Origin: Candidatus Nomurabacteria bacterium
Lineage (GTDB): Bacteria; Patescibacteriota; Minisyncoccia; Phycocordibacterales; UBA918
DNA length: 64,000 nucleotides
NCBI GenBank assembly: GCA_020632095.1
Contig: JACKGF010000001.1
Span: 802,141-866,140, forward strand
Direction of reading: 5' to 3'
Part shown: one piece after another, positions 8,698 to 24,845 of the stretch
How positions within the stretch are numbered: the first letter of the stretch is position 1
Layout: each line of letters starts with the position of its first letter
Translations under genes and position numbers: made by a program
The notes under the pieces: model-generated
Told to the model about the DNA's origin: nothing
Database searches by the model: none
What the model saw: only the letters and a program-made list of their open reading frames with translations

Positions 8698-9597
8698 TTA
8701 CTTCCCGTATATCTGTAGTACAGCCTTGGTGCCAGCTAGGTTTCTTTCCCACTCAACGCTGGTTCTGGTTTCAAGTTCGACAGTCACGGCGGGGATTCCG
8801 ATGGAGGCCAACCAACCTTCCGCATCGCCGGTGATTGGGTAGGCGTTGAAGACTGGTACGGCGCCATAGTTACCGGCGGTTGAATAGGCGCGCATCAGAG
8901 CGAGGGTTTCTGGCAGGACACCATTCTCACATTCTGAGGCATAGACATTGTTGGCTTGGCTGTGCCAAAAGACAACGGACTTAGGTTTGATAGTGGTGAC
9001 ATAATCACGTAGTGTCGCAGCTTCTGGTTCGGAAAAAGCTGAACTTCCAGCACTCACTGTCTTCCCTCGCCAGCTACTTTCGGGTGCCCACTTGCAAGCG
9101 AAGTTGCGATTGAGGTCAACGTCGCGCGAATTAAAGCGTCCGATACCACTGGAGTGCATACTATTATTTGGAATATCAGTAGCCGAGAACTTACCCTCAA
9201 GTCCAGTGGCTAGATATAACCCATCAGGATTTAGATCGGGAATAATATGAATTGTGATGTTGCTTGGAATTTGTTCTGGGTGGCTTTCTAGATAATCCGC
9301 CATGTCGTAAGCTAATAGGATACTGTTCCATTCGTAGCCACCATGCATACCACCAACAAAAAGTAGATTATCGTCACCGGTACCAAAAGTGTAGGCTTCG
9401 ATTTTACGATTTTCTACGGATGTACCGATAGTGGATTTGGTTGTAGTTGGGCTTGTTGCAACCTGGGTTTCTTTAAGGGGTTCTTCTGTAACTGGAGAGA
9501 CGGGTTCATTTGGGGCTTCAGTTTTAAGTAAGAGAATTACAACAACCAAAATAACCACTACCGCTAATACGATCGCACTAATTTTTAGTTTTGACAT
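8698..9597 (-). CDS. M14-like zinc carboxypeptidase / deacylase-fold protein, paralog 1 (membrane anchored)
   Basis: It has an N-terminal TM helix and the motifs GGMHGGYEW, DLNPDG, VDLNRNF (the NRN substrate-binding motif of M14) and FWHSQ (a candidate third Zn ligand). Confidence 0.5.
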   Translation of the reverse strand: MSKLKISAIVLAVVVILVVVILLLKTEAPNEPVSPVTEEPLKETQVATSPTTTKSTIGTSVENRKIEAYTFGTGDDNLLFVGGMHGGYEWNSILLAYDMADYLESHPEQIPSNITIHIIPDLNPDGLYLATGLEGKFSATDIPNNSMHSSGIGRFNSRDVDLNRNFACKWAPESSWRGKTVSAGSSAFSEPEAATLRDYVTTIKPKSVVFWHSQANNVYASECENGVLPETLALMRAYSTAGNYGAVPVFNAYPITGDAEGWLASIGIPAVTVELETRTSVEWERNLAGTKAVLQIYGK

Positions 9598-10544
9598 TAT
9601 TCAGCGTATTTTGCTAGTACAGCCTTTACTCCAGCTAGGTTCTTGGTCCACTCAGTGCTTTTGTGATTAGTTAGCAAGACACTGATAGCTGGAATATTTT
9701 TCTTTGCCATCCAATTCACCATGTCTCCATTGATAGTATAAGCGTCAAATTTTGCATCAGCTGGATAGCCAGCTGCTGTAGCAAAGGCGGCAGCCATTTC
9801 AACAGAGTCTTTACTTGGAGTTGTGTCACAAGCTGACGGATAAACTTTTCCTTCTGCACTAAACCAGACTACGGCGGCGGTTGGTTTGTAGGTTTCTACG
9901 TAATTTTTAATAGCTTCGGCTTCTGGTTCAGAGAAGGCAGTTGAGCCACCACTGACTGTTTCGTTCTGCCATTTACTTGTAGCGCTCCAATCACAATCAA
10001 AGTTTCGGTTCAGGTCTACTTTGTTCGCATTAAACCTGCCGGCTGTTCGAATATCATCACTAACTGCTAAAGCATCAGATTCCTCAAATCTTCCAGTGGT
10101 ACCAACTGTCGCATCCAATCCGTCTGGGTTAGCAACTGGAATAATAGTAACTGTCACATCATCAGGGACAGCATCAGGGTTAGTATCTAGGTAATCAATT
10201 AGTTCGTAGGCTAATAGGCTAGTGTTCCATGAGTAGCCTCCATGGATACCACCAATGAATAATAGTTCGGTATCACCGCTACCAAAGTGATAGGCAGTTA
10301 TATCATTACCATCAACTGAGGAACCAATTACACTTTTGTCTCCACGAGCTTTGACAGTTTCTTCAATTTGTTCAGTATCGCTGGTGGTCGAGTTGTCTTC
10401 AATAACGGTTGAAGTGTCGGTACCATCTCCACTAGGAGTTTCAACCACCATCACTGTTGCATCGTTGGATTTACTCAACATAAAACCAACTGCACCAATT
10501 AGAATTAAGGCTAAAATAACAATCGTAATATTTTTTGTATTCAT
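9597..10544 (-). CDS. M14-like paralog 2, probably a pseudo-enzyme
   Basis: Same architecture and motifs as paralog 1 (GGIHGGYSW, NPDGLDA, VDLNRNF). The positions of the Glu and the later His zinc ligands are replaced (YSW, VWFSA). Confidence 0.45.
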   Translation of the reverse strand: MNTKNITIVILALILIGAVGFMLSKSNDATVMVVETPSGDGTDTSTVIEDNSTTSDTEQIEETVKARGDKSVIGSSVDGNDITAYHFGSGDTELLFIGGIHGGYSWNTSLLAYELIDYLDTNPDAVPDDVTVTIIPVANPDGLDATVGTTGRFEESDALAVSDDIRTAGRFNANKVDLNRNFDCDWSATSKWQNETVSGGSTAFSEPEAEAIKNYVETYKPTAAVVWFSAEGKVYPSACDTTPSKDSVEMAAAFATAAGYPADAKFDAYTINGDMVNWMAKKNIPAISVLLTNHKSTEWTKNLAGVKAVLAKYAE

Positions 10545-10678: not shown

Positions 10679-11427
10679 CTAACATCTTTCAAATAAACTT
10701 CTAGTTTCTGCAAAGATTTTTGGATTCACCTCGTATCCAATGTAGGTGCCACCTTCTCTAACGACTTCTCTTCCCAGTCTCCCAGAACCCATAAATGGTT
10801 CAAGGACAGTTTTGTTGGGCCCAAAGCCGTATTTATTGGTAAAGTATTGAACTAAGTCGATGGGAAATGGACAAGGATGGTTTGCTGAAGGAGTGTAGTC
10901 TGTGTATATAATATTACCTTCAGTTTTTTTGAACCTCACTTTTCTGGTGAATTCTAACAGTTGAAGTGTGTTGGAGTGAGTGTCGATTTTTGCTGTACAA
11001 TCACATTCCAATCCCCAGCTTGTTCAGGCAGTTCAATTCCGTCTGAATGTTTTATTACTACAAAACTTCTACTAGTTAATTTGAGGCTTACTGTTTCGGT
11101 AAAAATTTTCTGAAATAGTCTGGCTAGCTCTAAGTATTTTCCCTTAGTGAAGATTGTATCGCTTGCAAGGACTAAGACAGTTCCAGCGGGTGCTAGCACC
11201 CTCTCACATTCTTTAGCGACAGATTCCATCAGGGCTACGTAGGAGTTGATTGACTGTTGGTCAACAACTCCCTTGTATTTGATTCCGACGTTAAATGGTG
11301 GGTCAAGAATGATTGTGTCTACCGAGGAGTTCCGAATGCCGGACATGTCCTCTGATGACTGACAGTACAGTTCATAATTTACTGTTCCGTGTATGTTATC
11401 GTGGATTTTTCTTTTGCCTTCGATCAT
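10679..11427 (-). pseudogene. beta-class N4/N6 DNA methyltransferase split by a frameshift (ORFs 10954..11427 and 10679..11011)
   Basis: The upstream ORF carries motif IV (TIILDPPFNVG). The downstream ORF carries motif I (LEPFMGSGRLG) and HPCPFP. The two frames overlap by about 58 nt around a T5/A5 run at about 10986-10990. Confidence 0.6.
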
Positions 11428-11441: not shown

Positions 11442-13883
11442 TTAAGTCCCTTGCACCGCCAACTCCGCTTCTGTAAAATCAGATTTTTTTAGATTTATGC
11501 TATCACCTCTTTGGATAGAGCCAGAAATTATCTTTTGTGCTACTTTTTCTTCGATTACATCTTGGATAACTCTCTGCATTGGGCGAGCTCCAAATTCAGG
11601 GCTATAGCCTTTTTCAACTAAAACACCAAGTAAGTCGGCACTAATATCCAAATCATAGCCCTTTTCTTTCACTCTTTCGTATAGACCACCCAACATCAGG
11701 CTGGCGACCTCGGTTTGTTGGCCAACATTTAATGGTTCAAAAATAATTGTACTGTCAAAACGGTTAATAAGTTCCGGTCTATAGGTACCATCTTTAATAA
11801 TACTGTCAATGATTTCTTGCGCTAGGTGGGAAAGTTCTTGGCGTTGCTGAACGGTGCGGAGAATCAATTGACTGCCGGCGTTTGAGGTGGCAATGATTAT
11901 GGTATTACGAGCGTTCACCTTTGTTCCTCTTGAGTCGGTGAACATTCCTTCGTCTAAGACCTGCAAGAAAATATCATGCACTGCTTGAGTAGCTTTTTCA
12001 AACTCATCTAGTAGGAGTACTGAGTAAGGGTGTTCGCGTAGCATGGTTGGCAGTTCTCCTGCTACAACTCCATCACCAATTAATTTTTCCAGAGCATCTG
12101 GTCCGCTGTATTCTGACATGTCGATTCTTTGCATCTTGCCTTCACCACCAAAGAAGACTTTAGCTAAAGCTTTAGCTGTCTCAGTTTTTCCGACTCCGGT
12201 TGGCCCCAAGAAAAGAAATGATCCAATTGGTTTTTCAGACGATTGGATGCCAGCTCTAGCGCGGCGCATAGTGCGAGCGATTGCATTTAAGGCAGCTTGC
12301 TGCCCGATTACTTGTTGGTGGAGTTTGTCTTCTAGGTGAAGAAGTAAATCTCGCTCATGGTCCTGAATCGGACCAGCCGGTACTCCAGTTTTTTCGCTAA
12401 CAATTTTATAAACATAGTCTTCCGTGATAATTGGAACAGCGTTCTGACTGGCTTTGGTGGCGATATCAACAAGAAGCTCGATTGCTTTGTCTGGCATCAC
12501 TCCCTCCACTATGTAACGGTCGGCGGAAAGGGTGATTGCGTTTAGTCCGGCGTAAGTGAAAATGGTGTGATATCGAGTTTCGTTTTGTAGCGCAACACCT
12601 TGAAGTACTCTAGTAGTAGCACTAAGATCAGGACTGTCGATTAATACTTCAGCAAAACGTCTGGCAAATCCACCAAGAGTCTCAAGGTATGTGTGATAGG
12701 CTCCGGGTGTATCAGTAGCGATGATTTGAAGTTGTGGTAGAGCCAAGTATTCATCAAGTAGTTCTGGTATAAAAACTCCCATCGATTCGGCCTCTCTAAT
12801 AAAAGTACTTAGGTTTTCAATCACAATTATAATATTGCCAGCAATAGTGGCTTCATCGAACATTTTTAGAATAGTTGTTTCTAATTCCTGCTTGTCATGA
12901 TGAGTAGCAAACAATCGATTGGTATCAAGCACGACCATTTGTTTTCCAGTGATAGCGGCTAAAGATTGACCAGTACGGATACGTCTTTGCACTTCCATTA
13001 CTAAATCAATCTTACCTACCCCAGCTTCACCAATAATAAGTACATTAGAGGCTTTGGCTCTAATTAGGGAGTTTTCAATTTCGACTATTTTTTCTGTGGC
13101 AAAAGTGCTATCTAAACTCATGGTGGAAAATACCGCACTAGTCCGAATATCTTTTGAAAATTTCTCAAGAAGATAAGCTGTACCATAGGCCCATTCACGT
13201 CCAATACCAGTGGTCCGTGAAAGATTGTCTTTACTCCACCAACGTAAAGCCCGCTTTTCTTGATGATAACTGCCAACTACCCATCGTAGTGAACCAAGAA
13301 ATATTTCTTCGTTTATACCGGCCTCTTTAATCATTGCCTTAAAACTAACGTCATGTATGAGTAGATATTTACCAAGTCCAATTAAGCTGAATATTTCCCT
13401 TTCAGGCATCACCACCATAGCAGTGGTTATTTTTTGACGAGGTGATCTAAGAAAATTATCAATTGTTTCTGGACTTAGTCCAGCTCTTAGTAAAGCAATA
13501 GAACCAAAAGTGGAAGAACAAAAAGTAAAGGCAACGTCGCTTGTGTCTTTTAATACAGCTTCAGCTACGTCGTAGGTTGCTCCATCGATAGATTCCTCTT
13601 CGAGACCAATTAAAGAATTCAAACCACGGAAAAAGTAACTATTATGATAGGAAAAAGTCAGCATTTGCTCAATCCATATAGCGGAAAAAATTAGAGCTAG
13701 ACCAGATAATGGTTGAAGATATTGACTATTGAAAATGTAAGCACTAGCAGCGACGCCAGCTCCACATAATGTAGCACTGGCAAAACAGATAGTACGCAGG
13801 GTTGAAAGTGAAGAACGACTCATTAGAGCAGTGAGACGTATAGCTGGTTGATATTTTTTGATGCTATCTTCGAGGGTATACAT
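11442..13883 (-). CDS. ClpA/ClpC-like AAA+ ATPase with an N-terminal membrane domain
   Basis: D2 is canonical (LFLGPTGVGKTETAKALA..., sensor and arginine finger). D1 reads GEAGVGKIDLV, so the Walker A Thr is replaced by Ile. The first ~130 aa hold two hydrophobic helices where the Clp_N domain would be. Confidence 0.8.
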   Translation of the reverse strand: MYTLEDSIKKYQPAIRLTALMSRSSLSTLRTICFASATLCGAGVAASAYIFNSQYLQPLSGLALIFSAIWIEQMLTFSYHNSYFFRGLNSLIGLEEESIDGATYDVAEAVLKDTSDVAFTFCSSTFGSIALLRAGLSPETIDNFLRSPRQKITTAMVVMPEREIFSLIGLGKYLLIHDVSFKAMIKEAGINEEIFLGSLRWVVGSYHQEKRALRWWSKDNLSRTTGIGREWAYGTAYLLEKFSKDIRTSAVFSTMSLDSTFATEKIVEIENSLIRAKASNVLIIGEAGVGKIDLVMEVQRRIRTGQSLAAITGKQMVVLDTNRLFATHHDKQELETTILKMFDEATIAGNIIIVIENLSTFIREAESMGVFIPELLDEYLALPQLQIIATDTPGAYHTYLETLGGFARRFAEVLIDSPDLSATTRVLQGVALQNETRYHTIFTYAGLNAITLSADRYIVEGVMPDKAIELLVDIATKASQNAVPIITEDYVYKIVSEKTGVPAGPIQDHERDLLLHLEDKLHQQVIGQQAALNAIARTMRRARAGIQSSEKPIGSFLFLGPTGVGKTETAKALAKVFFGGEGKMQRIDMSEYSGPDALEKLIGDGVVAGELPTMLREHPYSVLLLDEFEKATQAVHDIFLQVLDEGMFTDSRGTKVNARNTIIIATSNAGSQLILRTVQQRQELSHLAQEIIDSIIKDGTYRPELINRFDSTIIFEPLNVGQQTEVASLMLGGLYERVKEKGYDLDISADLLGVLVEKGYSPEFGARPMQRVIQDVIEEKVAQKIISGSIQRGDSINLKKSDFTEAELAVQGT

Positions 13884-13895: not shown

Positions 13896-14285
13896 TTAAG
13901 CTATCAAAAGGCTAATGCCAAAAACTAATAAAGCAATAATGACGGCTGGCGCAAATACCCAAAATACATATACAGCGAGTCCAGCTAAAACCGTAATCAA
14001 TAGTGCAATTAAACCAGCCGCTATTATCACGGTTCGCAACAACCCCCCAACAATACGGGAGATTATGTTAATAATAACGAATCCTGCCAGGTCCTCTAGA
14101 TTCCATTTTTCTCCACGATCTTCTACAATTCGTTTCCAAGGAGACAACCAAGTACGCATCAACTGAGGTAGAGAAAAGAAATTTACTACAAACCAGAGTA
14201 AGTTTAGCCAAACATGAAAAATTTCTAAGAAAGCCCGTGTGTAATGCCAGATAAAATAATGATGCATTATCGAAAGAAAGAGCAT
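13896..14285 (-). CDS. small integral membrane protein
   Basis: 129 aa with 3-4 hydrophobic segments. Confidence 0.4.
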   Translation of the reverse strand: MLFLSIMHHYFIWHYTRAFLEIFHVWLNLLWFVVNFFSLPQLMRTWLSPWKRIVEDRGEKWNLEDLAGFVIINIISRIVGGLLRTVIIAAGLIALLITVLAGLAVYVFWVFAPAVIIALLVFGISLLIA

Positions 14286-14450
14286 GATGGTTTTATTATA
14301 TCAGCTAACTTGTAGTATGGGCGAGTAGTGGTTGATAGTGTTCTAAAAAGTGACTACATTACGAGGTTTGTTTTGATGACACTAATTTTTTCTTGCTTTC
14401 AATAAAAAAAGTAGGTAAAAAGTAGATTGTAAGAACTGTATCCACAAATC

Positions 14451-14484
14451 AAAAGCCGCGCGAGCAAATGCTCGCGCGGCTTTT
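14451..14484. terminator. bidirectional intrinsic terminator
   Basis: aaaagccgcgcgagcaaatgctcgcgcggcttttg. Confidence 0.65.
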
Positions 14485-14499: not shown

Positions 14500-14748
14500 T
14501 TATTCAGTAGCGTCATCATCACTGGCAACTGGAGCAGCTGCGTCATCTGATGCTCGTTGTACATTTGCTGCAGCAGGACCCTTTGGACCTTCTTCGATTT
14601 CAAATGATACAACATCACCTTCGTTAAGGTCGTCAAATGCGACATCAACTAGAGCTGAAGCATGGAAGAAAACGTCCTTTTCTCCATCAACTGGCTTGAT
14701 AAATCCGTAACCTTCGTCACGCTTTCTAATGATTGATCCTTTCATCAT
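14500..14748 (-). CDS. cspA: cold-shock protein (CspA family) with an acidic C-terminal tail
   Basis: MMKGSIIRKRDEGYGFIKPVDGEKDVFFHASAL, with the RNP1 and RNP2 motifs. Confidence 0.85.
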   Translation of the reverse strand: MMKGSIIRKRDEGYGFIKPVDGEKDVFFHASALVDVAFDDLNEGDVVSFEIEEGPKGPAAANVQRASDDAAAPVASDDDATE

Positions 14749-15371: not shown

Positions 15372-16178
15372 ATGTGTATGAAAATTTATTCTTGGAATGT
15401 GAATGGGATAAGAGCAGTTGAAAAAAAAGGTTTATTACAGCCATTCTTGGCCAAACATCAGCCAGATGTGCTTTGTCTTCAGGAAACTAAGGCTCAACCG
15501 GACCAGATTGACCTGAATTTAGACGGTTACGAGTTGTTTTGGCATTCAGCGGAGAAAAAAGGCTATTCTGGCACAGCCATTTTTACCAAACATGAACCAA
15601 TTGACGTGGTTAATGGCTTGCCGGAAGAGATTAAATCCAAGTATCAATTAACTGACAGTTATGGCGATACAACAATGGAGGGGCGAATTATGACTGCTGA
15701 ATTTGAGCCTTTTTATATCAGTACAGTTTATACTCCCAACGCCAAGGATGATTTGTCGCGAATTCCCATGCGCCAGCAGTGGGATCCGGCCTATTTACAA
15801 TATATGAGTGACTTGCAAAAAATTAAGCCAGTTATTTTTTGTGGTGATTTTAATGTCGCCCACACTGAACTCGATCTAGCTCGACCTAAGCAAAATATTG
15901 GTAAAAAAGGATTTACCTCTGAAGAAAGAGTTGGGATCGATAACATGCTAAAGCATGGATTTGTTGATACTTTGCGACACCTCAATCCAGACACACCCGA
16001 ACTCTACACTTGGTGGTCACACTTTGGCGGGGCGCGCGAACGAAATGTTGGTTGGCGGATTGATTATGTCATGGTGTCAGAAGCCTTAGTACCAGTTATA
16101 AAAAACGCCCGCATCCACCCAGAAGTATTAGGCTCCGACCACTGCCCTGTTTCGATTGAGCTTAGTGTTGAACTCTAG
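15372..16178 (+). CDS. xth: exodeoxyribonuclease III / AP endonuclease
   Basis: MKIYSWNVNGIRA...DVLCLQETK...GDFNVAHTELD...SDHCPV. Confidence 0.9.
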   Translation: MCMKIYSWNVNGIRAVEKKGLLQPFLAKHQPDVLCLQETKAQPDQIDLNLDGYELFWHSAEKKGYSGTAIFTKHEPIDVVNGLPEEIKSKYQLTDSYGDTTMEGRIMTAEFEPFYISTVYTPNAKDDLSRIPMRQQWDPAYLQYMSDLQKIKPVIFCGDFNVAHTELDLARPKQNIGKKGFTSEERVGIDNMLKHGFVDTLRHLNPDTPELYTWWSHFGGARERNVGWRIDYVMVSEALVPVIKNARIHPEVLGSDHCPVSIELSVEL

Positions 16179-16422
16179 ATTTTTACCAAAAAAATTTTGA
16201 GTTTAATTTTTTATTATTCAACAAACGCTAAGACAGCTTAGCTTAAAAGTGCTAGCTTCATTATTAAGTAGTGAAATAGGGCTGTAAATAAGATTAAACT
16301 GAAGTTCAGAGTAATCAAAAACTAACATAACTTACAAAAAATTAATTAGTAAAAAAATAAATTTTAGCTTTTTTATAAAAACACGAAACACAATTTAGTC
16401 AAATGAAATTGTAAAGGACAAG

Positions 16423-16441
16423 TTATCCACAGTTATACACA
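16423..16441 (+). promoter_or_regulatory. tandem DnaA-box-like motifs (TTATCCACA, TTATACACA) at the edge of a very AT-rich stretch
   Basis: A perfect DnaA-box consensus and a one-mismatch box lie adjacent to each other. An AT-rich tract of about 250 bp precedes them (16180-16420). Confidence 0.25.
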
Positions 16442-16845
16442 CCCCTGTCCTTTACACTGTCCTTTAGGATTAGTATATTAATGGTAGGCCCAGAAAGGGC
16501 GAGCAAGCTCTCCCAGAGAACTAACCAGAATCAATTTCCGATTAGTTCCCTGGAAGAGCTCCTTATAGAGTTCTTCCAAAATCCACAAATGAGTTACCTC
16601 CAAAATGATAGCAATATCATTAAACTCAAAACGTTCATAAAACATCCCACCCCCTTAGAAATCAGATCAAGCTCACATCCACAAGAGCGAGATCACAAAA
16701 TGATTTCTACAACAACGTAGAGCTCGGACACGGTTAGCTTCATCAGTAAGCGCCACCCATGACTATTTAGTCACTATAGCTCGCCAAAGGCCCGGAAAGT
16801 CGGCTGACAAGTATCACACTTGCCCATCGACTCCCCGGGCCTTTT

Positions 16846-16933
16846 TTTTGCATGAACAAAGGCCTGAAAGGCCTATTGTGAATGTATGTTGCTAGAAAAT
16901 AATGACTGAAAGGAGTATATTTTATGTATGCTG
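16846..16933 (+). repeat. direct repeat copy 1 (about 88 bp) with a 5' hairpin and an embedded SD-ATG
   Basis: tgaacaaaggcctgaaaggcctattgtgaatgtatgttgctagaaaataatgactgaaaggagtatattttatgtatgctgtgcacaag. Confidence 0.7.
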
Positions 16934-16966
16934 TGCACAAGATTTGTTTTGCCTTGAGCAAATTCT

Positions 16967-17055
16967 GACTCAAGGAACAAATGTCCGAAGGGCATATTGT
17001 GAAAATATGTTGCTAGAAAATAATGACTGAAAGGAGTATATTTTATGTATGCTTG
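16967..17055 (+). repeat. direct repeat copy 2 (121-bp period)
   Basis: It is identical over about 60 nt. Its hairpin has a different sequence (atgtcc-gaa-gggcat, against aggcct-gaa-aggcct in copy 1) but keeps the base-pairing. A 1-nt indel follows the ATG. Confidence 0.7.
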
Positions 17056-17306
17056 TGCACAAGGATCCGCCTCTTTCCTAGGGCGGATTCCTGGACGTGG
17101 AACAATGCTCCGCAAACTCTCTTCCTGGTAGGAAATAACCAAGTAAAATGTTTATATACACCTACCCCCCTAAACCGACCCTAATACAGTTTAGCCTTAC
17201 CAAGGAAGAGTCTAGGTAAAAACTACTTGGTCACCTGAATTGTCCAACCAAGGAAAGGTCTAGGCGAAATTACTAGTCGATTCAATCTCACTTTGTCACC
17301 CCCCAT

Positions 17307-17336
17307 AAGAAAACGGCTCAACTGAGCCGTTTTCTT
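17307..17336. terminator. bidirectional intrinsic terminator
   Basis: aagaaaacggctca-act-gagccgttttctt. Confidence 0.65.
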
Positions 17337-17346
17337 AACCTGTCCT

Positions 17347-18819
17347 TTATAATACCTTATGCTCTCTCGCGATGTCCTTTAGGGCTTCAGCTTCTTCTTC
17401 CGCTTGGCGACGTTTACCTGCCTCCGCCATTGTTTCTAGCTCTACTTCGGGCAATTTAAGTAATTCCAACGCCCTTTGCTCCATATACTCCTCAGTATTC
17501 TTGCTGGCATCATCCAAAGCTTCTTCCAACAGTGCGTGCAGTAGATATCCCAGCTTTTTACCAGGCTTTTCCCCAGAGATTTCCATAATTTTATCCCCAG
17601 AGATTTTAAGCATCTTAACTGAGATTGGGTCGCGTAAAGCTTCGTCCACCATCGCTTTGTATTTACGGAAGCGAAAAGGCTGTTCTTTTGGTCGACCGGT
17701 ACCGATACGGTCACAAACTCTCAGGTTTAATAAATTTTCTATCTGGTCCTCCCCTATTCTGGTAATGGTTCTCCGTACCGCTGAAAGTGTAATTTCGTCT
17801 GGGTCTGAGAAAAACATGTGCCATCGCACTAGGTTCACCACTTCTTCAATCATTTCGCGTGGCAGCTTCAGTCTCTCTAGAATAGATTTAGTCATCCGCG
17901 CGCCCACTACTTCATGACCAAAGAATGTGTACTTCTTATTCTTTCCACCAACTCTTCTGGTGGCTGGCTTTGCGATATCGTGAAATAAGGCGGCCAAACG
18001 TAGATTGAGAGAAAATTCTTTGTCGGCGGCTGCCTGCATGGTGCGTAGTAGGTGTTCATAGACATCAAATGCGTGGATTCCACCTTGTTCGCAACCAATT
18101 GAATCAGCAAATTCAGGGATAAATTGCTTCAGTAGACCTAACTTTTCTAGGAAGATAACCCCTTGCATTGGGGTAGAAGAATTAACGATCCTCAAAAACT
18201 CGGCCGCAATACGTTCAATAGAAATACGGCTCAATTGTTCACTGTTCTTTAAGATAGCAGCCATGGTCTTCCCTTCGATCATAAAGTCCAGTTCAGCCGC
18301 CAAGCGAACGGCCCGCATCATGCGTAAGGCATCTTCCGCAAAACGTTCGTCCGAGTCACCGACTGTTTGTAGTCGTTTTGCTCTGAGGTCGCTAATTCCC
18401 TCAAACAAATCAATTAATTCCGCTGTCGAGATACGATAGGCTAAGGCGTTGATGGTAAAATCACGACGCTTCAGGTCTTCTTCCAGTGAAACACCGAAAG
18501 TAACGTTGTCTGGGCGGCGAGCATCGCTGTATCCACTTTCGGAACGATAAGGAGTGACCTCAATTATCTTTAGTCGTTCATCTTCTGACTCAGTCTTGAT
18601 ACCAATAGTGCCAAAGTCATTGTTCGCATAATGCTCAGGAAAAAGCGCTTGAATATCACTCGGGTGTGCATTGGTGGTAATATCCCAATCCTTCGGAGTC
18701 TTACCTAAAATTAAGTCACGAGTACAACCGCCCACCAAATAGGCTTCAAAACCCTTACTTTCAAGCATATTTGCAACATGAAACACTTCGTCCGGAATAT
18801 CGGTAGTTTTGATAGACAT
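17347..18819 (-). CDS. cca: CCA-adding tRNA nucleotidyltransferase with an HD domain
   Basis: GGCTRDLILGKTPKDWDITT is the PolyA_pol head. It also has the HD motif (HDIAK) and a C-terminal extension. Confidence 0.85.
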   Translation of the reverse strand: MSIKTTDIPDEVFHVANMLESKGFEAYLVGGCTRDLILGKTPKDWDITTNAHPSDIQALFPEHYANNDFGTIGIKTESEDERLKIIEVTPYRSESGYSDARRPDNVTFGVSLEEDLKRRDFTINALAYRISTAELIDLFEGISDLRAKRLQTVGDSDERFAEDALRMMRAVRLAAELDFMIEGKTMAAILKNSEQLSRISIERIAAEFLRIVNSSTPMQGVIFLEKLGLLKQFIPEFADSIGCEQGGIHAFDVYEHLLRTMQAAADKEFSLNLRLAALFHDIAKPATRRVGGKNKKYTFFGHEVVGARMTKSILERLKLPREMIEEVVNLVRWHMFFSDPDEITLSAVRRTITRIGEDQIENLLNLRVCDRIGTGRPKEQPFRFRKYKAMVDEALRDPISVKMLKISGDKIMEISGEKPGKKLGYLLHALLEEALDDASKNTEEYMEQRALELLKLPEVELETMAEAGKRRQAEEEAEALKDIAREHKVL

Positions 18820-18915
18820 GACATTATTCTAGCAGAAATTACTGTTTGGGGTATGTTTATCTATAATTAGCGGTTGAATATTACCGAAAACAATAGTACA
18901 CTGCGACATACTAAT

Positions 18916-18988
18916 GCACCCGTGGCTTAATGGATATAGCACTTGTCTTCGGAACAAGGGGTTGGGGGTTCGAATCCCTCCGGGTGCA
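18916..18988 (+). tRNA. tRNA-Arg (anticodon TCG)
   Basis: The acceptor stem is GCACCCG/CGGGTGC. The anticodon stem is CTTGT/ACAAG with loop CTTCGGA. The T-loop is GTTCGAATC. A hairpin (18997-19020) follows. Confidence 0.85.
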
Positions 18989-19473
18989 CATCTTGACAAT
19001 ACACTATAAATAGTGTATTGTTTGTTATTCCCAATCCCCCACCACCAGCAGAAGCACCTTACATATCAAATAATAAGACAATTTCTCAGAGGAGAGAGTC
19101 TTGATTACTAACCTACAAAGGAAGGTTCAAGTTAAACAATCACTGACAACCCGCAAGGGTTTGAAACAGGCGACTGACTCTCAACTCCGAATTAGTCGCC
19201 CGTTTTCGTTGAAGGAAGCGCGGGAACGAATCAGTGTAATAGATATGTCGTTCTCCCACTTCTCTCAATGAGGAGAGAGTATAGAAGAATGTTTTTTGAA
19301 AATTGGATAACGACTACGTAAACCTTCTCCCAGTGAAGTTTCTAAAATATAATTTGGGGATTTCACTGGGAGAAGGCATAGTGCCGACTTCCCAGAATTC
19401 CAAGCGCCTGCCCGCCTGGTTCACCTAAAAACCGAACCGCGCAGGCAGAGCGCGGAAAAGAAAAGGAGAAAAA

Positions 19474-20886
19474 ATGGGAAGCATTAGATTCATAATCGAC
19501 GGTAGTAAACTCGAGGCGGACTCCGTCTATGGGTATCCGTATAGCCTGAGTATGATCCAAAGGGGTGTCGATTCTCACGATCAGGAGCTCGGTGTCATCG
19601 AGGAGAAACAGGTCCCGGACTACCTAATAAGTGTCTTCCGAGCCATGCAGGTCGCGATCCCGCCGGAGAACATATATACCGGCGCAATCAGCAATCAAGC
19701 TCCAAGCGCGATGGTCGATACTATGTTCGGTGTCGGACGTCGTAGCTCCGCGACCTTCACTTTCCTCCCGACCGAGCTCACGGCTCATGGTCACCGCGCT
19801 TGGGTCAAGCATAAGTACTGGACGGAAGGTGGGGGCGAGTGTTGGATTGGCTCCCTGATAGAGCACAATGCCTACGTCGCCGGTTTCTGGCTCGACGAGC
19901 GGGCCGCCCAGCAGTGGGTGGAGGACCTTACCAAGCACCCGCTCGGTGAGGTCCTGCTCAAGAGCACAACACCCTACGCCGTTGTGTTCCAGGATCACGT
20001 CAATCCGGCCGAGTGGAAAGGTGTGAGGATCAATTATTTCTCGTACTGCCTGCTTTCTGAGGATGACAACTACCTCCTGAACACGATCGGTGGAGGATGT
20101 CCAAAGGGCGTTTACCGTTCATTCGATGTTTCCTTCGAGCAGTGGAACGGAACGGTCTACGTTCACGCGCCCGAGCTCTGGCAGTTGGAGCGAGACAACA
20201 AACGCGACGTCTTCCCACTTAGCCCGTCCTACCTCATTCTTCGTGCCCGCAACGGTGCCCAGGAAGTGCTTCTCACAGGTACCGACCAAGACAAGAACGG
20301 CTGGACGAAATACGTCTATGAGCTTCCTAGGCGTAAGTCCTACAACCCTCTCGACGCCTCGGGCAATTGGGCCACCTTCTGGCCCAGTTACAATGCTTGG
20401 GAGGAATTCGCCTTCGCACAACACATCAAGGCGCGTCAGGTGAGTACCCTCCACAGCGACGACTGGGGCGACGAGGATGACCCCTTCTTCATTCCACTCA
20501 CACAAGAGTACGCGAAGAAGGCCTGGGCCGCGGGCGCTACGAAGCTCCCGGCCGAGAGCATCAAGCTCAAGGTCAGCCAGTTCAAGGCGGGATACGGAGA
20601 GGGAGATCGATTAATCAACGATGAGCAAAACCCTCTGAATGGTGCCGTTATCTACGACGGATTCGACTTTGTCTCGGGTTTAGTGGGCCGGATCGTGGAT
20701 TGGATCTGGCTCAAGAAGGAATCGGCCTGCGTGTTTCTGCCTATGGGTTTCGTAGGCTGGATTCAGTGTCAGAAGGGGCTGGCAATCTCCCATGCCACGG
20801 TGGTTCGTAAGCTCGGCGACAAGTCGCGCGATCCGACTGAAATAACAGTATTTTCGGATGGTAGTTGCATCTACCCCACCACCTAG
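19474..20886 (+). CDS. hypothetical protein (470 aa), compositionally foreign (about 58-60% GC)
   Basis: Long ORF with GC3-rich codons. I recognise no motif. Confidence 0.55.
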   Translation: MGSIRFIIDGSKLEADSVYGYPYSLSMIQRGVDSHDQELGVIEEKQVPDYLISVFRAMQVAIPPENIYTGAISNQAPSAMVDTMFGVGRRSSATFTFLPTELTAHGHRAWVKHKYWTEGGGECWIGSLIEHNAYVAGFWLDERAAQQWVEDLTKHPLGEVLLKSTTPYAVVFQDHVNPAEWKGVRINYFSYCLLSEDDNYLLNTIGGGCPKGVYRSFDVSFEQWNGTVYVHAPELWQLERDNKRDVFPLSPSYLILRARNGAQEVLLTGTDQDKNGWTKYVYELPRRKSYNPLDASGNWATFWPSYNAWEEFAFAQHIKARQVSTLHSDDWGDEDDPFFIPLTQEYAKKAWAAGATKLPAESIKLKVSQFKAGYGEGDRLINDEQNPLNGAVIYDGFDFVSGLVGRIVDWIWLKKESACVFLPMGFVGWIQCQKGLAISHATVVRKLGDKSRDPTEITVFSDGSCIYPTT

Positions 20887-21463
20887 TCGGATTTCAAACG
20901 CACCGTGTCGCGTACAGTTCTTTCACCGAGTTGAGGACACGGTCTCAGCTCGCTACATCGGAGCAAAGATTGACTAGCCGTCACTACTAGTGGAAAAGCC
21001 ACCTGGAGGACGGCTTTTTCTATATTTATACAAGACAAAAGTGTCGAACCAACTCCTGCTCAGCGCACAAAGGTAAAAGAAAAACACGATGCAAATTGCA
21101 TCATGCTTTTCTTTTAGAAAGTAACCTGCGTCACTCTGGGCCTTTGAGCAAGGCGAAGAACTGTTTTCTCCCGCTCCTAGGGAGAAAAAAGTCGAGCCGG
21201 ATGAGTCAGTCTGGGAGACTGATGCAAGACTTTGTCAGCTTTTTTTTGAGGAACGAAGAGAAATCGCGACAAGGTGAGCAGAATTCGTAGAATTCGAGAG
21301 TGCTAAGTAAAATTTGCATTTAGTGCGGAATCATATTAATACTGACCATTAATGCAATCAGTGCTAATGTGTTTAAATGTGGTTTATATGGTCGAGTACA
21401 TGTCAATGACAAAACAAATAAACCAATATATATTAATTACCTGTTCTTTAGGAGGAGTGCCCC

Positions 21464-22003
21464 ATGCAACTTGTCGAACTACCTATATCTGGAAGAGCTT
21501 CCCTTATTCAAGTTCAAGAGATTCTTGCTGAATTTGGTCAGCTGATTCCATGGCTAATGAAAATTGGTGGTCTGTGCTATTCGACCAATCGACGGTATTT
21601 CGAGGAGCAGTTACACCAGAGGATAGGGTGTAAACCGGGTTCCATTTCCCTGTATCAACTCGTAAGTTCTGGTCGTGAGAGAGACTACGTAGGAGGATTA
21701 TTACGCTTTGCAGACGTCCCTGAGAAGTTTTTAGATTCTCGTCTTCAAATGCTCATGGCACAACTCGTTACCCAAGGTGCCATGTACATATCTTGTCTTC
21801 AAGTGCACGGAGTAAAACGTGGCTTGGGATATGGCTATGGCGCAGAAATAGTTCTTAAGGCAATTAAGCGTATCCAGCAAGAGTGGCCGATTGTTTGGGG
21901 AGTTTGTGAACCTAGATTGCTCAAGTGGTATGTTTCATTGGGAGCAGAGGTTCTGGACCCAGGGATTAACCGTGACCATCTGGCCTTAATAGTATGGAGA
22001 TGA
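21464..22003 (+). CDS. hypothetical protein, possible GNAT-like acyltransferase
   Basis: VKRGLGYGYGAEIV resembles GNAT motif A. The call is weak. Confidence 0.35.
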   Translation: MQLVELPISGRASLIQVQEILAEFGQLIPWLMKIGGLCYSTNRRYFEEQLHQRIGCKPGSISLYQLVSSGRERDYVGGLLRFADVPEKFLDSRLQMLMAQLVTQGAMYISCLQVHGVKRGLGYGYGAEIVLKAIKRIQQEWPIVWGVCEPRLLKWYVSLGAEVLDPGINRDHLALIVWR

Positions 22004-22025
22004 GAACCCCGAGCATCTCGTTGCT

Positions 22026-22060
22026 CTAGCCCGCCAATTCTGTTGGCGGGCTAGCTTTTT
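22026..22060 (+). terminator. intrinsic terminator
   Basis: ctagcccgccaattctgttggcgggctagcttttt. Confidence 0.65.
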
Positions 22061-22080
22061 ACCCACAGGCATATTATTTT

Positions 22081-22380
22081 GTGGAAGTATTTGTTAAGCT
22101 ACGTTATATGGAACTATCAGAACGCTACATCCAAAAGCTTGAAAATGAAGGGTTTGCTTCGGTATATGAGGGGCAGGACGCGGCTGGTAAGGTCTATTCG
22201 GAACGGATTTCCAAAGGAAAGCTATCAATCTTGGTGACCGATGGTTCCCTCACTTTCACCATGTCTGGACGAGAGAAAGTTGTGGCGGCTGGTCAACGCT
22301 TCGATATACCGCCATCAACAACATACTCACAAGTCGCTGGTCCCCTGGGAGCGATTTATATTGTGGGTGAAATGGACTAA
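22081..22380 (+). CDS. small hypothetical protein (cupin-like?)
   Basis: 99-aa ORF. The start codon is uncertain. Confidence 0.3.
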   Translation: MEVFVKLRYMELSERYIQKLENEGFASVYEGQDAAGKVYSERISKGKLSILVTDGSLTFTMSGREKVVAAGQRFDIPPSTTYSQVAGPLGAIYIVGEMD

Positions 22381-22384
22381 GGGT

Positions 22385-23095
22385 TTAAATATCCTTATAA
22401 AACCGTATTTTTTCGTCAGGCTCGAAGCTGTTTTTTAATATTTCTTGAGTATTTGGCAGGTCACTTTTTTCGTAGAAATCTTCCGCATCATTGTGTGATC
22501 GGCCGCCAGCCATATGTCGGGCGACCACATTGGCTCGCATGGTTGATAAATCACCAACCACCGCTAGTTGGTAGCTACACAAATCACGAATTTTGGCCCA
22601 TTCGCGGTTTTTTCTGAGTAGCCATTGCCCTTCAAGTAGGAGTAGAGTATTGCTGTCGTGTATGGAAATAGCGTCTGGTATCGGATTATGAGTAGTTCTG
22701 GAATACGTTGGGAAGGAAACGTCTTCTCCGGCGGTGAAGGATTGTAGTTTTTTGGTTAGAAGCGGAAGATTGTAGGTATCGTATCTACCTTTCACCGCTC
22801 GCAGATTCATTCCATCTAGAACATCATTTGTATAATGAAAAGCATCCAGGCCGACAGGCACATATTCGAAGGGTAAATTGCGAGCTTTAAAGAAATGACC
22901 TACTAAAGCCACAGTCACAGATTTTCCCGACCCAGCTGGTCCACTTAGTCCAAATACTTGCCTGCCCTTTCCTTTATCATTATATATCTCGCTAATTTTA
23001 TCGACCAAACTCTCATAGTATTTAATTTGTTCGTCTGAAAGTGCTGACAAATCTACAGCTTGCCCCGCCACTTCTATTGTTGATGGGATTTTCAT
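22385..23095 (-). CDS. P-loop nucleoside/nucleotide kinase-like protein (PRK/uridine-kinase-like)
   Basis: Walker A is FGLSGPAGSGKS. The size and layout resemble PRK-family kinases. Confidence 0.45.
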   Translation of the reverse strand: MKIPSTIEVAGQAVDLSALSDEQIKYYESLVDKISEIYNDKGKGRQVFGLSGPAGSGKSVTVALVGHFFKARNLPFEYVPVGLDAFHYTNDVLDGMNLRAVKGRYDTYNLPLLTKKLQSFTAGEDVSFPTYSRTTHNPIPDAISIHDSNTLLLLEGQWLLRKNREWAKIRDLCSYQLAVVGDLSTMRANVVARHMAGGRSHNDAEDFYEKSDLPNTQEILKNSFEPDEKIRFYKDI

Positions 23096-23252
23096 ACCTA
23101 CATTCTACCAGTTGTTGCAAACAATCCGAATTCAATACAAAGAGAAAGAAAAGCACATAGGTCAAAAACTAACTTAGCCCACTCAATATTGTGCTGGTAT
23201 TGTTTACAACTCAAATCGAACTTATGTAATTAGTATATAATATACGAACAGT

Positions 23253-23912
23253 ATGGTACGGAATCAAGTGAATTATGAACAAGCTATCAATCTTCGGAAA
23301 CGTGGTTTTACTTTAGCTGAGATAGCTAAAGTGTGCGATATATCTAAGTCCACCGCTTCATTATGGTTGAAAAATAAGGCTTTTTCGGAGCTGGTAACTA
23401 AACAAAATATAAAACGCGCTGGCCAAGAAAACGCCAAAAGATTGAGTCTAATCAGCAAAGCGCGCGGTGGTGAACGCAAGCAAAGATACTTAGACGCACA
23501 AACATCAGCTAAGACAGAGTTTGCCCACTACAAGGCCAATCCTGCCTTTGTAGCGGGTGTAATGGCCTATGTGATGTCGGGAGACATGAGTGATGAGCAT
23601 ACTATCAGACTCAGTCATACTTCCCTGTCAGCCCACCGTATGTTTATCAGCTTTGCTACTAAGTTCCTGGGAGTAGAAAAAAACCGGATTCATTTATGGC
23701 TACACCTCTATGAAGGTGCATCAGAAGAAAGAATGATGAAAAAATGGTCTAAAATAACCACTATTCCCTTCTCTCAGTTCTATAAAAATCAATTTGTTAA
23801 TAAAACCAGCCGCAAACCATTGCACTCTGGCGTCGGAAATACTATAATCGGCAGCACCTATCATAAACAAAAGCTAAAAGCCTGGGTGCATTTAGCGGAA
23901 AAAGAATGGTAG
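23253..23912 (+). CDS. HTH-domain protein, unknown function
   Basis: It has an N-terminal helix-turn-helix (RGFTLAEIAKVCDISKSTASLWLK). Confidence 0.45.
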   Translation: MVRNQVNYEQAINLRKRGFTLAEIAKVCDISKSTASLWLKNKAFSELVTKQNIKRAGQENAKRLSLISKARGGERKQRYLDAQTSAKTEFAHYKANPAFVAGVMAYVMSGDMSDEHTIRLSHTSLSAHRMFISFATKFLGVEKNRIHLWLHLYEGASEERMMKKWSKITTIPFSQFYKNQFVNKTSRKPLHSGVGNTIIGSTYHKQKLKAWVHLAEKEW

Positions 23913-23925
23913 AATAGACATATAA

Positions 23926-24827: not shown

Positions 24828-24845
24828 TTGTGATAAGATTTTTGT

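What the first reader, a model, noticed from the sequence alone, without database searches (positions are those of the whole stretch)
11442..13883. Clp-type unfoldase with a transmembrane N-terminus and a degenerate D1 Walker A motif
The D2 module is a textbook ClpA/B/C D2. The N-terminal roughly 130 aa that normally form the Clp_N adaptor-binding domain are replaced by two hydrophobic helices. The D1 P-loop reads GEAGVGKIDL, so the conserved GK(T/S) threonine is an isoleucine, which would be expected to compromise Mg-ATP binding in D1. A membrane-tethered, possibly single-active-ring Clp ATPase is unusual. It sits next to a frameshifted DNA methyltransferase, which may be coincidental.
Basis: seen in the sequence. 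Interest (0 to 1): 0.5.

Follow-up and report, generated by a model that had tools for sequence, protein, structure and literature searches.

The report
Membrane-anchored Clp ATPase with obligate partner
This gene encodes a ClpB/ClpA-like protein-remodelling ATPase that has gained a membrane anchor, has only one working motor ring, and is always encoded next to a small uncharacterised membrane protein in one large group of ultra-small (CPR) bacteria, which points to an undescribed membrane-bound chaperone machine.

Summary
The 813-aa ORF (11442-13883, minus strand) is real. It is 100% identical to a Candidatus Nomurabacteria protein annotated as a generic "Clp protease ATP-binding subunit".

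The D1 Walker A threonine-to-isoleucine change is confirmed and is a family trait. D1 has also lost its Walker B (DE to EN) and its pore-loop tyrosine. In distant relatives the whole D1 P-loop is eroded.

D2 has intact catalytic motifs but is not "textbook". Its pore-1 loop is 6 residues shorter than ClpB's and lacks the GYVG tyrosine. There is no M-domain and no ClpP-docking tripeptide.

New finding: a 129-aa helical membrane protein with no known family lies directly upstream, often with overlapping stop and start codons, in all 76 assessable loci of 79 Patescibacteria genomes. The unit is a two-gene module. The methyltransferase is a coincidental insert in a variable slot.

Best reading: a ClpP-independent, membrane-anchored Hsp100 remodeller driven by D2 alone, working with its membrane partner. 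This is an undescribed variant of a known kind. Its function is inferred, not shown.

The parts
14445..14484 (-). Intrinsic terminator of the upstream cold-shock (CSD) gene. It marks the 5' boundary of the two-gene unit.
   Evidence: Sequence AAAAGCCGCGCGAGC-ATTT-GCTCGCGCGGC-TTTTGATTTG read: an 11-bp GC-rich stem followed by a T-tract. Its function is inferred from the sequence.
14295..14303 (-). Extended -10 promoter-like element TGaTATAAT, 10 nt upstream of the partner's ATG. It suggests a near-leaderless transcript.
   Evidence: Read. This is a consensus match only, so the promoter is inferred.
13896..14285 (-). Partner gene: a 129-aa all-helical membrane protein with no known family. It has an aromatic-rich N-terminal helix (aa 2-36), a cytoplasmic loop carrying SPWKRxxE, and a strongly hydrophobic C-terminal stretch (aa 85-129).
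   Evidence: ORF. No Pfam or NCBIfam hit. 120 homologs, all named 'hypothetical protein'. AF2 pLDDT 92.6. Only generic helical-hairpin fold matches. Hessa-scale sums down to -3.2 kcal/mol for aa 85-129. Found directly upstream of the Clp gene in 76/79 loci; the other three are cut by contig ends.
13884..13895 (-). 12-nt junction between the partner's stop codon and the Clp ATG. It has no Shine-Dalgarno sequence. In relatives the two genes often overlap by 4 nt (ATGA).
   Evidence: Translational coupling is inferred.
11442..13883 (-). The Clp/Hsp100-like ATPase gene, 813 aa.
13824..13874 (-). N-terminal helix, aa 4-20 (LEDSIKKYQPAIRLTAL). It is followed by an Arg-rich, cytoplasm-side segment.
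   Evidence: AF2 helix H4-20 with pLDDT above 90. The pre-TM1 segment averages 3.8 K+R in the family.
13731..13793 (-). Hydrophobic helix 1 (predicted TM1), aa 31-51, TICFASATLCGAGVAASAYIF.
   Evidence: AF2 helix H23-49. Family median Hessa-scale sum is -0.57 kcal/mol against +6.7 for the best window in the soluble remainder; the query itself scores +2.4. Column identity is low (0.45) while hydrophobicity is kept.
13653..13718 (-). Hydrophobic helix 2 (predicted TM2), aa 56-77, LQPLSGLALIFSAIWIEQMLTF. It is followed by the conserved YHNSYFFRGLN motif (13617-13649).
   Evidence: AF2 helix H56-84. Family median Hessa-scale sum is +0.44; the query scores +3.8. The 4-aa inter-helix loop is uncharged.
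13239..13586 (-). Diverged Clp_N-fold domain with a double repeat, aa about 100-215.
13221..13244 (-). Family-signature motif RWWSKDNL (aa 214-221) in the linker between the N-domain and D1.
   Evidence: R214, W216 and L221 are conserved in at least 89 of 98 diverse members. It is the conserved stretch that served as a search pattern.
12456..13115 (-). D1 AAA+ module, aa 257-476, predicted to be catalytically dead. Walker A GEAGVGKI is at 13008-13031, the pore loop ATHHDKQELE at 12879-12908, Walker B IIIVIEN at 12813-12833, and the retained RR at 12657-12662.
   Evidence: Aligned to ClpB 177-399 at 75 bits. Family columns. No canonical motifs at the homologous positions in any member.
11481..12428 (-). 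D2 AAA+ module plus the D2-small domain, aa 486-801. Walker A GPTGVGKT is at 12183-12206, the shortened pore-1 loop LIGDGVVAGELP at 12048-12083, Walker B VLLLDEF at 12000-12020, sensor-1 TSN at 11880-11888, the segment without a ClpP-docking tripeptide at 11775-11879, Arg finger R708 at 11760-11762, and sensor-2 GAR at 11583-11591.
   Evidence: motifs conserved in at least 94 of 98 members; loop sequences; coordinates.

Best explanation
The ORF is the ATPase subunit of a conserved two-gene module found in Paceibacteria/Parcubacteria (CPR bacteria). It is a class-I Clp/Hsp100 protein (N-domain, D1, D2) that differs from the canonical forms in five ways:
1. It has gained an N-terminal helix plus a hydrophobic helical hairpin. 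The predicted topology is N-in, short loop out, C-in.
2. It keeps a diverged Clp_N fold.
3. Its D1 is a non-hydrolysing pseudo-ATPase ring.
4. It lacks both the ClpB M-domain and the ClpP-docking loop.
5. Its D2 is catalytically complete, but the pore-1 loop is shortened and, in this clade, has no aromatic residue.

It is co-translated with a 129-aa helical membrane protein.

Proposed mechanism (inferred). The ATPase forms a hexamer held at the cytoplasmic face of the membrane by 12 hairpin helices together with the partner. Because the anchor precedes the N-domain, the N-domain/D1 face points at the membrane and serves as a static docking collar. D2 is the only motor. Its ATP cycle pulls on or remodels membrane-embedded or membrane-proximal clients, possibly the partner complex itself. 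This would happen by short-stroke, low-processivity action rather than ClpB-style processive threading. It is not coupled to ClpP or DnaK.

Shown: the architecture, the state of each motif, the conservation and the gene pairing. Inferred: membrane insertion, hexamer geometry, physical interaction with the partner, and the type of client.
For: - Architecture and motifs. D1 aligns to ClpB 177-399 and D2 to ClpB 513-849, with nothing in between, so there is no M-domain.
- D1 degeneracy is a selected family trait. Walker A position 292 is I/M/V in 115/120 close homologs, and Walker B is an invariant E followed by N in 114/120. In 98 diverse members the P-loop lysine survives in 28 and the threonine in 4. 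No member has a canonical D1 at the homologous positions. D1 is still well conserved, with mean column identity 0.79 against 0.84 for D2.
- D2 is complete: Walker A in 97/98, Walker B DE in 96-97/98, sensor-1 N in 96/98, Arg finger in 96/98, sensor-2 R in 96/98.
- No [ILVM]G[FL] between sensor-1 and the RPE motif in 98/98. That segment is 35 aa long in 86/98, which is a ClpB-like length.
- Pore loops: D1 Tyr is replaced by Asp, and the D2 GYVG is missing.
- The Clp_N fold is retained.
- Hairpin: family Hessa-scale medians are -0.57 and +0.44 kcal/mol against +6.7 for the soluble control. The segment before TM1 averages 3.8 K+R while the inter-helix loop averages 0.06. TM1 drifts in sequence but stays hydrophobic.
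- Partner gene: directly upstream in 76/79 genomes, and in every locus where the region is present. This includes loci with otherwise unrelated neighbours, and the genes often overlap by 4 nt.
- The N-terminal module occurs in 296 clusters at 50% identity, most 800-830 aa long. All 79 genome loci are Patescibacteria.
Against: - No experimental data exist, and no dedicated TM predictor could be run.
- The query's own helices are only marginally hydrophobic (+2.4 and +3.8 kcal/mol; Ala/Gly/Ser-rich; E72 and Q73 lie in helix 2).
- The charge-free-run test did not separate the hairpin from the soluble control.
- Physical interaction with the partner is inferred from gene adjacency only.
- Half of the distant family members keep a Phe or Tyr in the D2 loop (motif LIG-SF-ExGKxG), so threading may be the ancestral mode.
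- The close clade keeps G-E-A-G-V-G-K and RRF in D1 strictly, so D1 may still bind nucleotide.
- Whether these genomes encode ClpP, ClpB, FtsH or DnaK could not be checked.
Confidence: 0.5

Rival explanations
1. Processive membrane-protein extractase. The hexamer threads membrane proteins out of the bilayer through its axial channel, much as Msp1/ATAD1 does or as FtsH would without its protease. The partner would act as substrate adaptor or lateral gate.
For: The N-terminal anchor places the entry face (N/D1) toward the membrane, as in FtsH and Msp1 (established knowledge; geometry inferred). D2 is catalytically complete. 50 of 98 distant members keep one aromatic residue in the D2 loop.
Against: In this clade neither ring has an aromatic pore-1 residue. 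The D2 loop is 6 aa shorter than in ClpB and is polar or acidic (DGE[QSK]AG) in 120 close homologs. D1 lacks an aromatic in 82/98. No Ar-Phi-Gly motif occurs anywhere in the family.
Confidence: 0.2
2. The protein is what the databases call it: a ClpA/ClpC-type unfoldase that feeds substrates to ClpP.
For: Source annotations read 'ATP-dependent Clp protease ATP-binding subunit ClpA/ClpC'. A single continuous alignment to ClpA covers aa 238-798.
Against: No IGF/IGL/VGF-type tripeptide in the D2 surface loop in 98/98 members, and that segment has ClpB-like length. NCBIfam ClpA scores 341 against a cutoff of 993. No clpP lies near the locus or downstream of tig in the window.
Confidence: 0.05
3. 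A ClpB-type disaggregase that works with DnaK, merely tethered to the membrane.
For: The best NCBIfam and PDB hits are to ClpB D2 (407 bits; 261 bits). The D2 segment where the ClpP-docking loop would sit has ClpB-like length.
Against: The M-domain is absent; it corresponds to ClpB 400-512 and is the Hsp70-docking element by established knowledge. Both pore-loop tyrosines are missing and D1 is dead. The ClpB model scores 407 against a cutoff of 1232.
Confidence: 0.05
4. The hydrophobic helices are not transmembrane. They form a buried or oligomerisation helical hairpin of a soluble or peripherally attached protein.
For: The query's helices are marginal on the Hessa scale (+2.4 and +3.8), rich in Ala/Gly/Ser, and include E72 and Q73. 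AF2 places the hairpin confidently within one model together with the N-domain (pTM 0.75). Charge-free run lengths do not exceed the soluble control.
Against: In most relatives the same helices are clearly TM-like, with medians of -0.57 and +0.44 against +6.7 for the control. TM1 is the least conserved segment yet stays hydrophobic. The charge pattern follows the positive-inside rule. The obligate partner has a very hydrophobic C-terminal stretch, down to -3.2 kcal/mol. Weak profile matches of this region are all to TM segments.
Confidence: 0.1
5. A decaying or non-functional Clp paralog, with the D1 lesions being degradation on the way to a pseudogene.
For: Several catalytic motifs in D1 are lost.
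Against: The ORF is intact and full-length in hundreds of genomes at 65-86% identity. D1 column identity is 0.79. The substituted positions are themselves conserved, for example E356 in 120/120 and N357 in 114/120.
Confidence: 0.01

Closest known systems
ClpB / Hsp104 (class-I Hsp100 disaggregases)
   Different: There is no M-domain, so no Hsp70-coupling element. D1 Walker A, Walker B and the pore tyrosine are lost. The D2 GYVG loop is truncated. An N-terminal membrane hairpin has been added. An obligate membrane partner is present. It scores far below the ClpB family cutoff.
ClpA / ClpC (ClpP-activating unfoldases)
   Same: Like ClpA, it has two AAA+ modules with no long M-domain. Databases label it ClpA or ClpC.
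   Different: The IGL/VGF ClpP-docking tripeptide is missing. D1 is inactive. It is membrane-anchored. Sequence methods find no adaptor-binding N-domain.
Torsin with LAP1/LULL1 (eukaryotic ER and nuclear envelope)
   Same: Both are Clp/Hsp100-related AAA+ proteins associated with a membrane through an N-terminal hydrophobic region. Both lack aromatic pore loops and depend functionally on a membrane-protein cofactor (PMC5425593). This is the closest functional analogy.
   Different: Torsin has a single AAA+ domain, lacks its own arginine finger and sits in the ER lumen. Here D2 keeps its Arg finger and sensors, a pseudo-D1 and an N-domain are present, the partner is a small helical protein rather than a degenerate AAA+ fold, and the ATPase is cytoplasmic in a bacterium. 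No direct homology is claimed beyond the shared Clp D2 ancestry.
FtsH
   Same: It is a bacterial AAA+ hexamer anchored by two N-terminal TM helices per subunit, with its entry face toward the membrane. It often works with small membrane partners (established knowledge).
   Different: FtsH belongs to the classical AAA clade, has a single AAA module with an aromatic pore loop, and carries a fused M41 metalloprotease. None of these features is present here.
Msp1 / ATAD1
   Same: It is an N-terminally membrane-anchored AAA+ hexamer that acts on membrane proteins without a fused protease.
   Different: Msp1 has a single classical AAA domain with strongly aromatic pore loops and threads processively. 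It is eukaryotic and unrelated to the Clp clade.
Type-II AAA+ proteins with one inactive ring (NSF D2, Pex1/Pex6 D1)
   Same: One ring is a degenerate scaffold and the other is the motor (established knowledge).
   Different: These are different AAA+ clades, they are soluble, and their active ring keeps canonical pore loops.
PTEX HSP101 (Plasmodium)
   Different: HSP101 is not itself membrane-anchored. Both its rings and its pore tyrosines are active, and it has an M-domain.

Membership tests
Clp/Hsp100 class I (two-ring) | Tandem D1 and D2 AAA+ modules with a C-terminal D2-small domain | tested here: met
   D1 aa 257-476 aligns to ClpB 177-399 at 75 bits, and D2 aa 468-801 to ClpB 513-849 at 261 bits. 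AAA_2 and ClpB_D2-small Pfam hits are above their cutoffs.
Clp/Hsp100 class I (two-ring) | Clp_N double-repeat N-terminal domain | tested here: inconclusive
Clp/Hsp100 class I (two-ring) | Functional Walker A and B in both rings, with an aromatic pore-1 loop in each | tested here: not met
   D1 has GKI instead of GKT, IEN instead of IDE, and Tyr replaced by Asp. D2 has intact Walker motifs but its pore loop is DGVVAG instead of PPGYVGYEEG.
ClpB (TIGR03346) | Coiled-coil M-domain inserted in the D1 small subdomain | tested here: not met
   ClpB residues 400-512 have no counterpart. The D1 and D2 alignments abut at query aa 468-476.
ClpB (TIGR03346) | Score above the curated equivalog cutoff | tested here: not met
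   407 bits against a cutoff of 1232.
ClpA / ClpC / ClpE (ClpP partners) | (I/L/V)G(F/L) ClpP-docking tripeptide in the D2 loop after sensor-1 | tested here: not met
   Absent in the query and in 98/98 family members. The loop is 35 aa long in 86/98, as in ClpB.
ClpA / ClpC / ClpE (ClpP partners) | Score above the curated cutoff (ClpA, TIGR02639) | tested here: not met
   341 bits against a cutoff of 993.
ClpA / ClpC / ClpE (ClpP partners) | ClpP encoded in the same genome | not testable with these tools
   Only a 64-kb window and flanks of 10 kb or less were accessible. No clpP was found in them, including downstream of tig.
ClpV / TssH (type VI secretion) | Equivalog score, and T6SS genes in the neighbourhood | tested here: not met
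   313 bits against a cutoff of 885. There are no T6SS families in any neighbourhood examined.
Torsin | Single Clp-D2-like AAA+ domain that lacks its own arginine finger, which a cofactor supplies | tested here: not met
   Arg finger R708 is conserved in 96/98, and two AAA+ modules are present. The resemblance is functional (membrane association, no aromatic pore loop in this clade, membrane cofactor), not membership.
FtsH | Peptidase_M41 domain fused to a single AAA module | tested here: not met
   No M41 hit in Pfam.
Dodola DolB / PDC-M37B (PADLOC defence candidates) | Full-length match and the cognate partner genes | tested here: not met
   The hits cover only the generic D2 AAA core (aa 505-673). 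The partner has no PADLOC hit. The gene sits in conserved housekeeping synteny.
Integral membrane protein (bitopic hairpin) | Two helices hydrophobic enough to insert, with positive-inside flanks | tested here: inconclusive
   Met for the family (medians -0.57 and +0.44 kcal/mol against a control of +6.7; 3.8 K+R before TM1 against 0.06 in the loop). The query is marginal (+2.4 and +3.8). No dedicated predictor or experiment was available.

The most novel reading that the evidence does not exclude
The partner protein and the hairpins of a hexameric ATPase together form a dedicated membrane machine specific to CPR bacteria. This would be a bacterial counterpart of Torsin-cofactor or PTEX-like systems, in which a single Clp-type D2 motor with non-aromatic pore loops drives gating, assembly or translocation through a multi-helix membrane assembly of roughly 24 to 36 helices. 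Such a machine could serve the unusual envelope or host-dependent uptake biology of these ultra-small episymbionts, rather than general protein quality control.
Probability: 0.15. Interest if true: 0.85.

Novelty: new variant of a known kind. Interest (0 to 1): 0.62.

Why it matters
Hsp100/Clp ATPases are textbook soluble machines. This would be a membrane-integrated member with a dead D1 ring, non-canonical pore loops and an obligate small membrane partner, none of which I found described in the searchable literature.

The module is strongly conserved (65-86% identity) across a major lineage of CPR bacteria. Their genomes are tiny, so retained genes are likely important, and their membrane biology is largely unknown.

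It also offers a natural test case for two open questions. One is how far an AAA+ motor can work without aromatic pore loops. The other is what a pseudo-ATPase ring contributes.

In practical terms, hundreds of database entries labelled "ATP-dependent Clp protease ATP-binding subunit ClpA/ClpC" are probably misannotated, and their partner, labelled "hypothetical protein", deserves a family of its own.

Tried and rejected
- **Locus search with the divergent alignment A2** failed because no stretch was conserved enough. It worked with the tighter alignment A4.
Physical interaction therefore remains untested.
- **The AFDB fold library** was unavailable.
- **PADLOC** hit only the generic D2 core, so I rejected a defence-system reading.
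- **The charge-free-run test for TM helices** did not discriminate from the control and is not used as support.
- **My first column-wise claim** that the whole family lacks a D2 pore aromatic was wrong. Inspecting the loops showed that half of the distant members keep a Phe or Tyr in inserted columns. The claim is now limited to the query's clade.
- **Literature searches** found no description of this family.
Full report
**1. The observation**

The ORF at 11442..13883 on the minus strand is real and encodes 813 aa. It is 100% identical to a protein on a 997-kb contig of Candidatus Nomurabacteria, which sources name 'ATP-dependent Clp protease ATP-binding subunit'. Pfam finds AAA_2 (aa 551-711, 1e-39) and ClpB_D2-small (aa 722-797). 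In the first half it finds only a weak AAA_lid_9 hit, with no Clp_N. All NCBIfam Clp equivalogs score far below their cutoffs: ClpB 407 against 1232, ClpA 341 against 993, ClpV 313 against 885.

**2. D1 is degenerate well beyond the one threonine**

A phmmer alignment to E. coli ClpB structures places query aa 257-476 on ClpB 177-399:

| Motif | Query | ClpB |
|---|---|---|
| Walker A | GEAGVGKI | GEPGVGKT |
| Walker B | IIIVIEN | VILFIDE |
| Pore-1 loop | ATHHDKQELE | AGAKYRGEFE (Tyr251 becomes Asp) |
| Arg-finger pair | RR, retained | RR |

The query has no other GK[ST] and no other hhhhDE motif outside D2.

The changes are selected rather than accidental. In 120 full-length homologs of at least 65% identity, position 292 is I in 77, M in 28, V in 10 and T in 4. 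E356 is invariant and N357 occurs in 114/120. D1 as a whole keeps a column identity of 0.79, against 0.84 for D2. In 98 diverse representatives the D1 P-loop has eroded altogether, with K in 28/98 and T in 4/98. D1 is therefore a conserved pseudo-ATPase module. In the query's clade it may still bind nucleotide, because G-E-A-G-V-G-K and RRF are strictly kept. That last point is inference.

**3. D2 is catalytically complete but not textbook**

Walker A (GPTGVGKT, 97/98), Walker B (LLLDE, 96-97/98), sensor-1 N (96/98), the Arg finger R708 (96/98) and sensor-2 GAR (96/98) are all conserved.

The pore-1 loop is not. Where ClpB has LVGAPPGYVGYEEGGYL, the query has LIGDGVVAGEL, which is six residues shorter and has no aromatic residue. 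The 120 close homologs read LIG[DN]GE[QSKH]AGxLP. Most distant members read LIG-SF-ExGKxG-xL, so 50/98 keep one Phe or Tyr, but never in an Ar-Phi-Gly context. An earlier blanket statement of mine was corrected by this inspection.

There is no M-domain, because the D1 and D2 alignments abut. There is also no (I/L/V)G(F/L) ClpP-docking tripeptide between sensor-1 and the RPE motif in 98/98 members, and that segment has ClpB-like length. By established knowledge of these families, the protein therefore fails the defining tests for ClpB (M-domain and Hsp70 coupling) and for ClpA/C/E/X-type ClpP partners.

**4. The N-terminus: an addition, not a replacement**

An AF2 model of aa 1-262, built on 28 diverse sequences, is confident (pLDDT 86, pTM 0.75). 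It shows helices at 4-20, 23-49 and 56-84, followed by a compact helical domain at 101-213.

- also ClpA, ClpC, Leishmania Hsp100, SMAX1 and ClpT1

Sequence methods miss this domain. The Clp_N fold is therefore retained at about aa 100-215, and aa 1-85 is a prepended module.

Evidence that the hairpin is transmembrane:
- On the Hessa biological hydrophobicity scale, the family medians for the best 19-residue window are -0.57 kcal/mol (helix 1) and +0.44 (helix 2). The best window anywhere in the roughly 700 soluble residues has a median of +6.7 and a minimum of +2.6.
- Helix 1 is the least conserved segment of the protein (0.45) yet stays hydrophobic.
- The segment before helix 1 carries 3.8 K+R on average, against 0.06 in the inter-helix loop. 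This fits an N-in, loop-out, C-in topology.

The caveat is that the query's own helices are marginal (+2.4 and +3.8). They are rich in Ala, Gly and Ser, and helix 2 contains E72 and Q73. This may reflect tight helix packing within a complex, but it keeps the TM call an inference. A strongly conserved RWWS(K/R)DNL motif in the linker between the N-domain and D1 is a signature of the family.

**5. The decisive context: an obligate partner**

A 129-aa ORF (13896..14285, minus strand) ends 12 nt before the Clp ATG. It has no Pfam or NCBIfam match. Its 120 homologs are all named 'hypothetical protein'. Its AF2 model is an all-helical elongated hairpin (pLDDT 92.6) that gives only generic fold matches. 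Its C-terminal 45 residues are strongly hydrophobic, with sums down to -3.2 kcal/mol.

In 79 Patescibacteria genome loci retrieved with the N-terminal signature, a homolog of this protein lies directly upstream on the same strand in 76. The other three loci are cut by contig ends. The stop codon typically falls between 86 nt upstream and 24 nt downstream of the approximate Clp start, and the genes often overlap by 4 nt; one locus is an outlier at 291 nt upstream. The pairing also holds where the wider neighbourhood is unrelated, for example next to SerRS and an FtsQ-like gene in L008.

In the window, a strong terminator follows the upstream cold-shock gene. An extended -10 element (TGaTATAAT) sits just before the partner's ATG, and the junction between the two genes has no Shine-Dalgarno sequence. 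The functional unit is therefore a two-gene operon, probably translationally coupled.

The split N6/N4 methyltransferase downstream occupies a slot that holds different genes, or none, in relatives. Its adjacency is coincidental.

**6. Distribution**

The N-terminal module occurs in 296 clusters at 50% identity, most of them 800-830 aa long. All 79 genome loci are Patescibacteria, carrying Nomura-, Kaiser-, Pace-, Taylorbacteria and Parcubacteria labels. Some MAGs from a large binning project are labelled 'Saccharibacteria', which I could not verify. Six literature searches found no description of such a protein.

**7. How it most likely works**

The following is shown: the architecture, the state of each motif, the conservation and the gene pairing.

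The following is inferred. The protein forms a Clp-like hexamer anchored at the cytoplasmic face by 12 hairpin helices together with the partner. Because the anchor precedes the N-domain, the N/D1 face points at the membrane, as in FtsH and Msp1. D1 is a static scaffold and D2 is the only motor. With no ClpP loop and no M-domain, the machine is independent of ClpP and DnaK. With no aromatic pore-1 residues in this clade, I favour short-stroke remodelling or extraction of membrane-associated clients, possibly the partner assembly itself, over processive threading. My confidence in this overall picture is about 0.5.

The main rival is a true threading extractase (0.2). The 'SF' loop of distant relatives keeps it alive. 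A ClpP-coupled unfoldase (0.05), a ClpB-type disaggregase (0.05), a non-TM hairpin (0.1) and a pseudogene (0.01) are all less likely.

**8. Comparison with known systems**

By homology this is a class-I Clp/Hsp100 protein, and its D2 is closest to ClpB's. It fails the membership tests for ClpB, ClpA/C, ClpV and FtsH.

By function, the closest analogy is the eukaryotic Torsin-LAP1/LULL1 system. That system is Clp-related, membrane-associated through an N-terminal hydrophobic region, lacks aromatic pore loops and depends on a membrane cofactor (PMC5425593). Unlike Torsin, however, this protein keeps its own arginine finger, so it is not a member of that family.

**9. Verdict**

This is a real, strongly conserved and apparently undescribed variant of the Hsp100 family. 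The finding's core observation stands. One of its descriptive claims is wrong, and the picture is richer than reported. Function remains inferred.

Noticed in passing
window 10679-11427 (-): A beta-class N6/N4 DNA methyltransferase is split by a frameshift into a 157-aa ORF carrying the DPPF motif and a 110-aa ORF (86 aa as called in public assemblies) carrying the FMGSG motif. The ORFs overlap by 58 nt. The same split appears in three independent assemblies, so it is not a sequencing error. The gene sits in a variable slot that holds HEPN, SocA_Panacea or other genes in relatives.
   Followed up: partly
window 8698-9597 and 9597-10544 (-): Two tandem Peptidase_M14 carboxypeptidase genes, each with an N-terminal hydrophobic anchor. 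They are syntenic downstream of the Clp module in Nomura- and Kaiserbacteria relatives but not in more distant ones.
   Followed up: partly
window 50248-51195 and 60715-61662 (+): Two copies of an IS30-like transposase ORF (HTH_38 domain, 315 aa). They are 99.3% identical over 948 nt, with 49 further identical bases upstream, which points to a recently active insertion sequence in a very small genome.
   Followed up: partly
window 53334-54467 (-): A trigger factor gene with no clpP or clpX downstream, unlike the common tig-clpP-clpX arrangement. No ClpP, ClpX, Lon or FtsH was seen among the ORFs scanned (mostly those of 230 aa or more) in the 64-kb window.
   Followed up: partly
window about 16000-26000: GC skew switches from negative (-0.11 at 16-18 kb) to strongly positive (about +0.2 from 24 kb onward). 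Gene orientation changes from mostly minus to mostly plus in the same region. This may be a replication origin or terminus.
   Followed up: no
window 37321-38079 (+), 39552-40523 (-), 49303-50121 (-): Three TrmB-family transcriptional regulator paralogs lie within 13 kb. A fourth TrmB gene lies near the Clp locus in a Kaiserbacteria relative (L004).
   Followed up: no
window 260-2053 (-), 19474-20886 (+), 35980-37170 (-): Large ORFs of 597, 470 and 396 aa have no Pfam match at all.
   Followed up: no
window 14500-14748 (-) and 14445-14484 (-): A cold-shock-domain gene with a very strong intrinsic terminator lies just upstream of the partner-Clp operon. The order CSD, partner, Clp is conserved in many relatives, though not in all.
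   Followed up: partly
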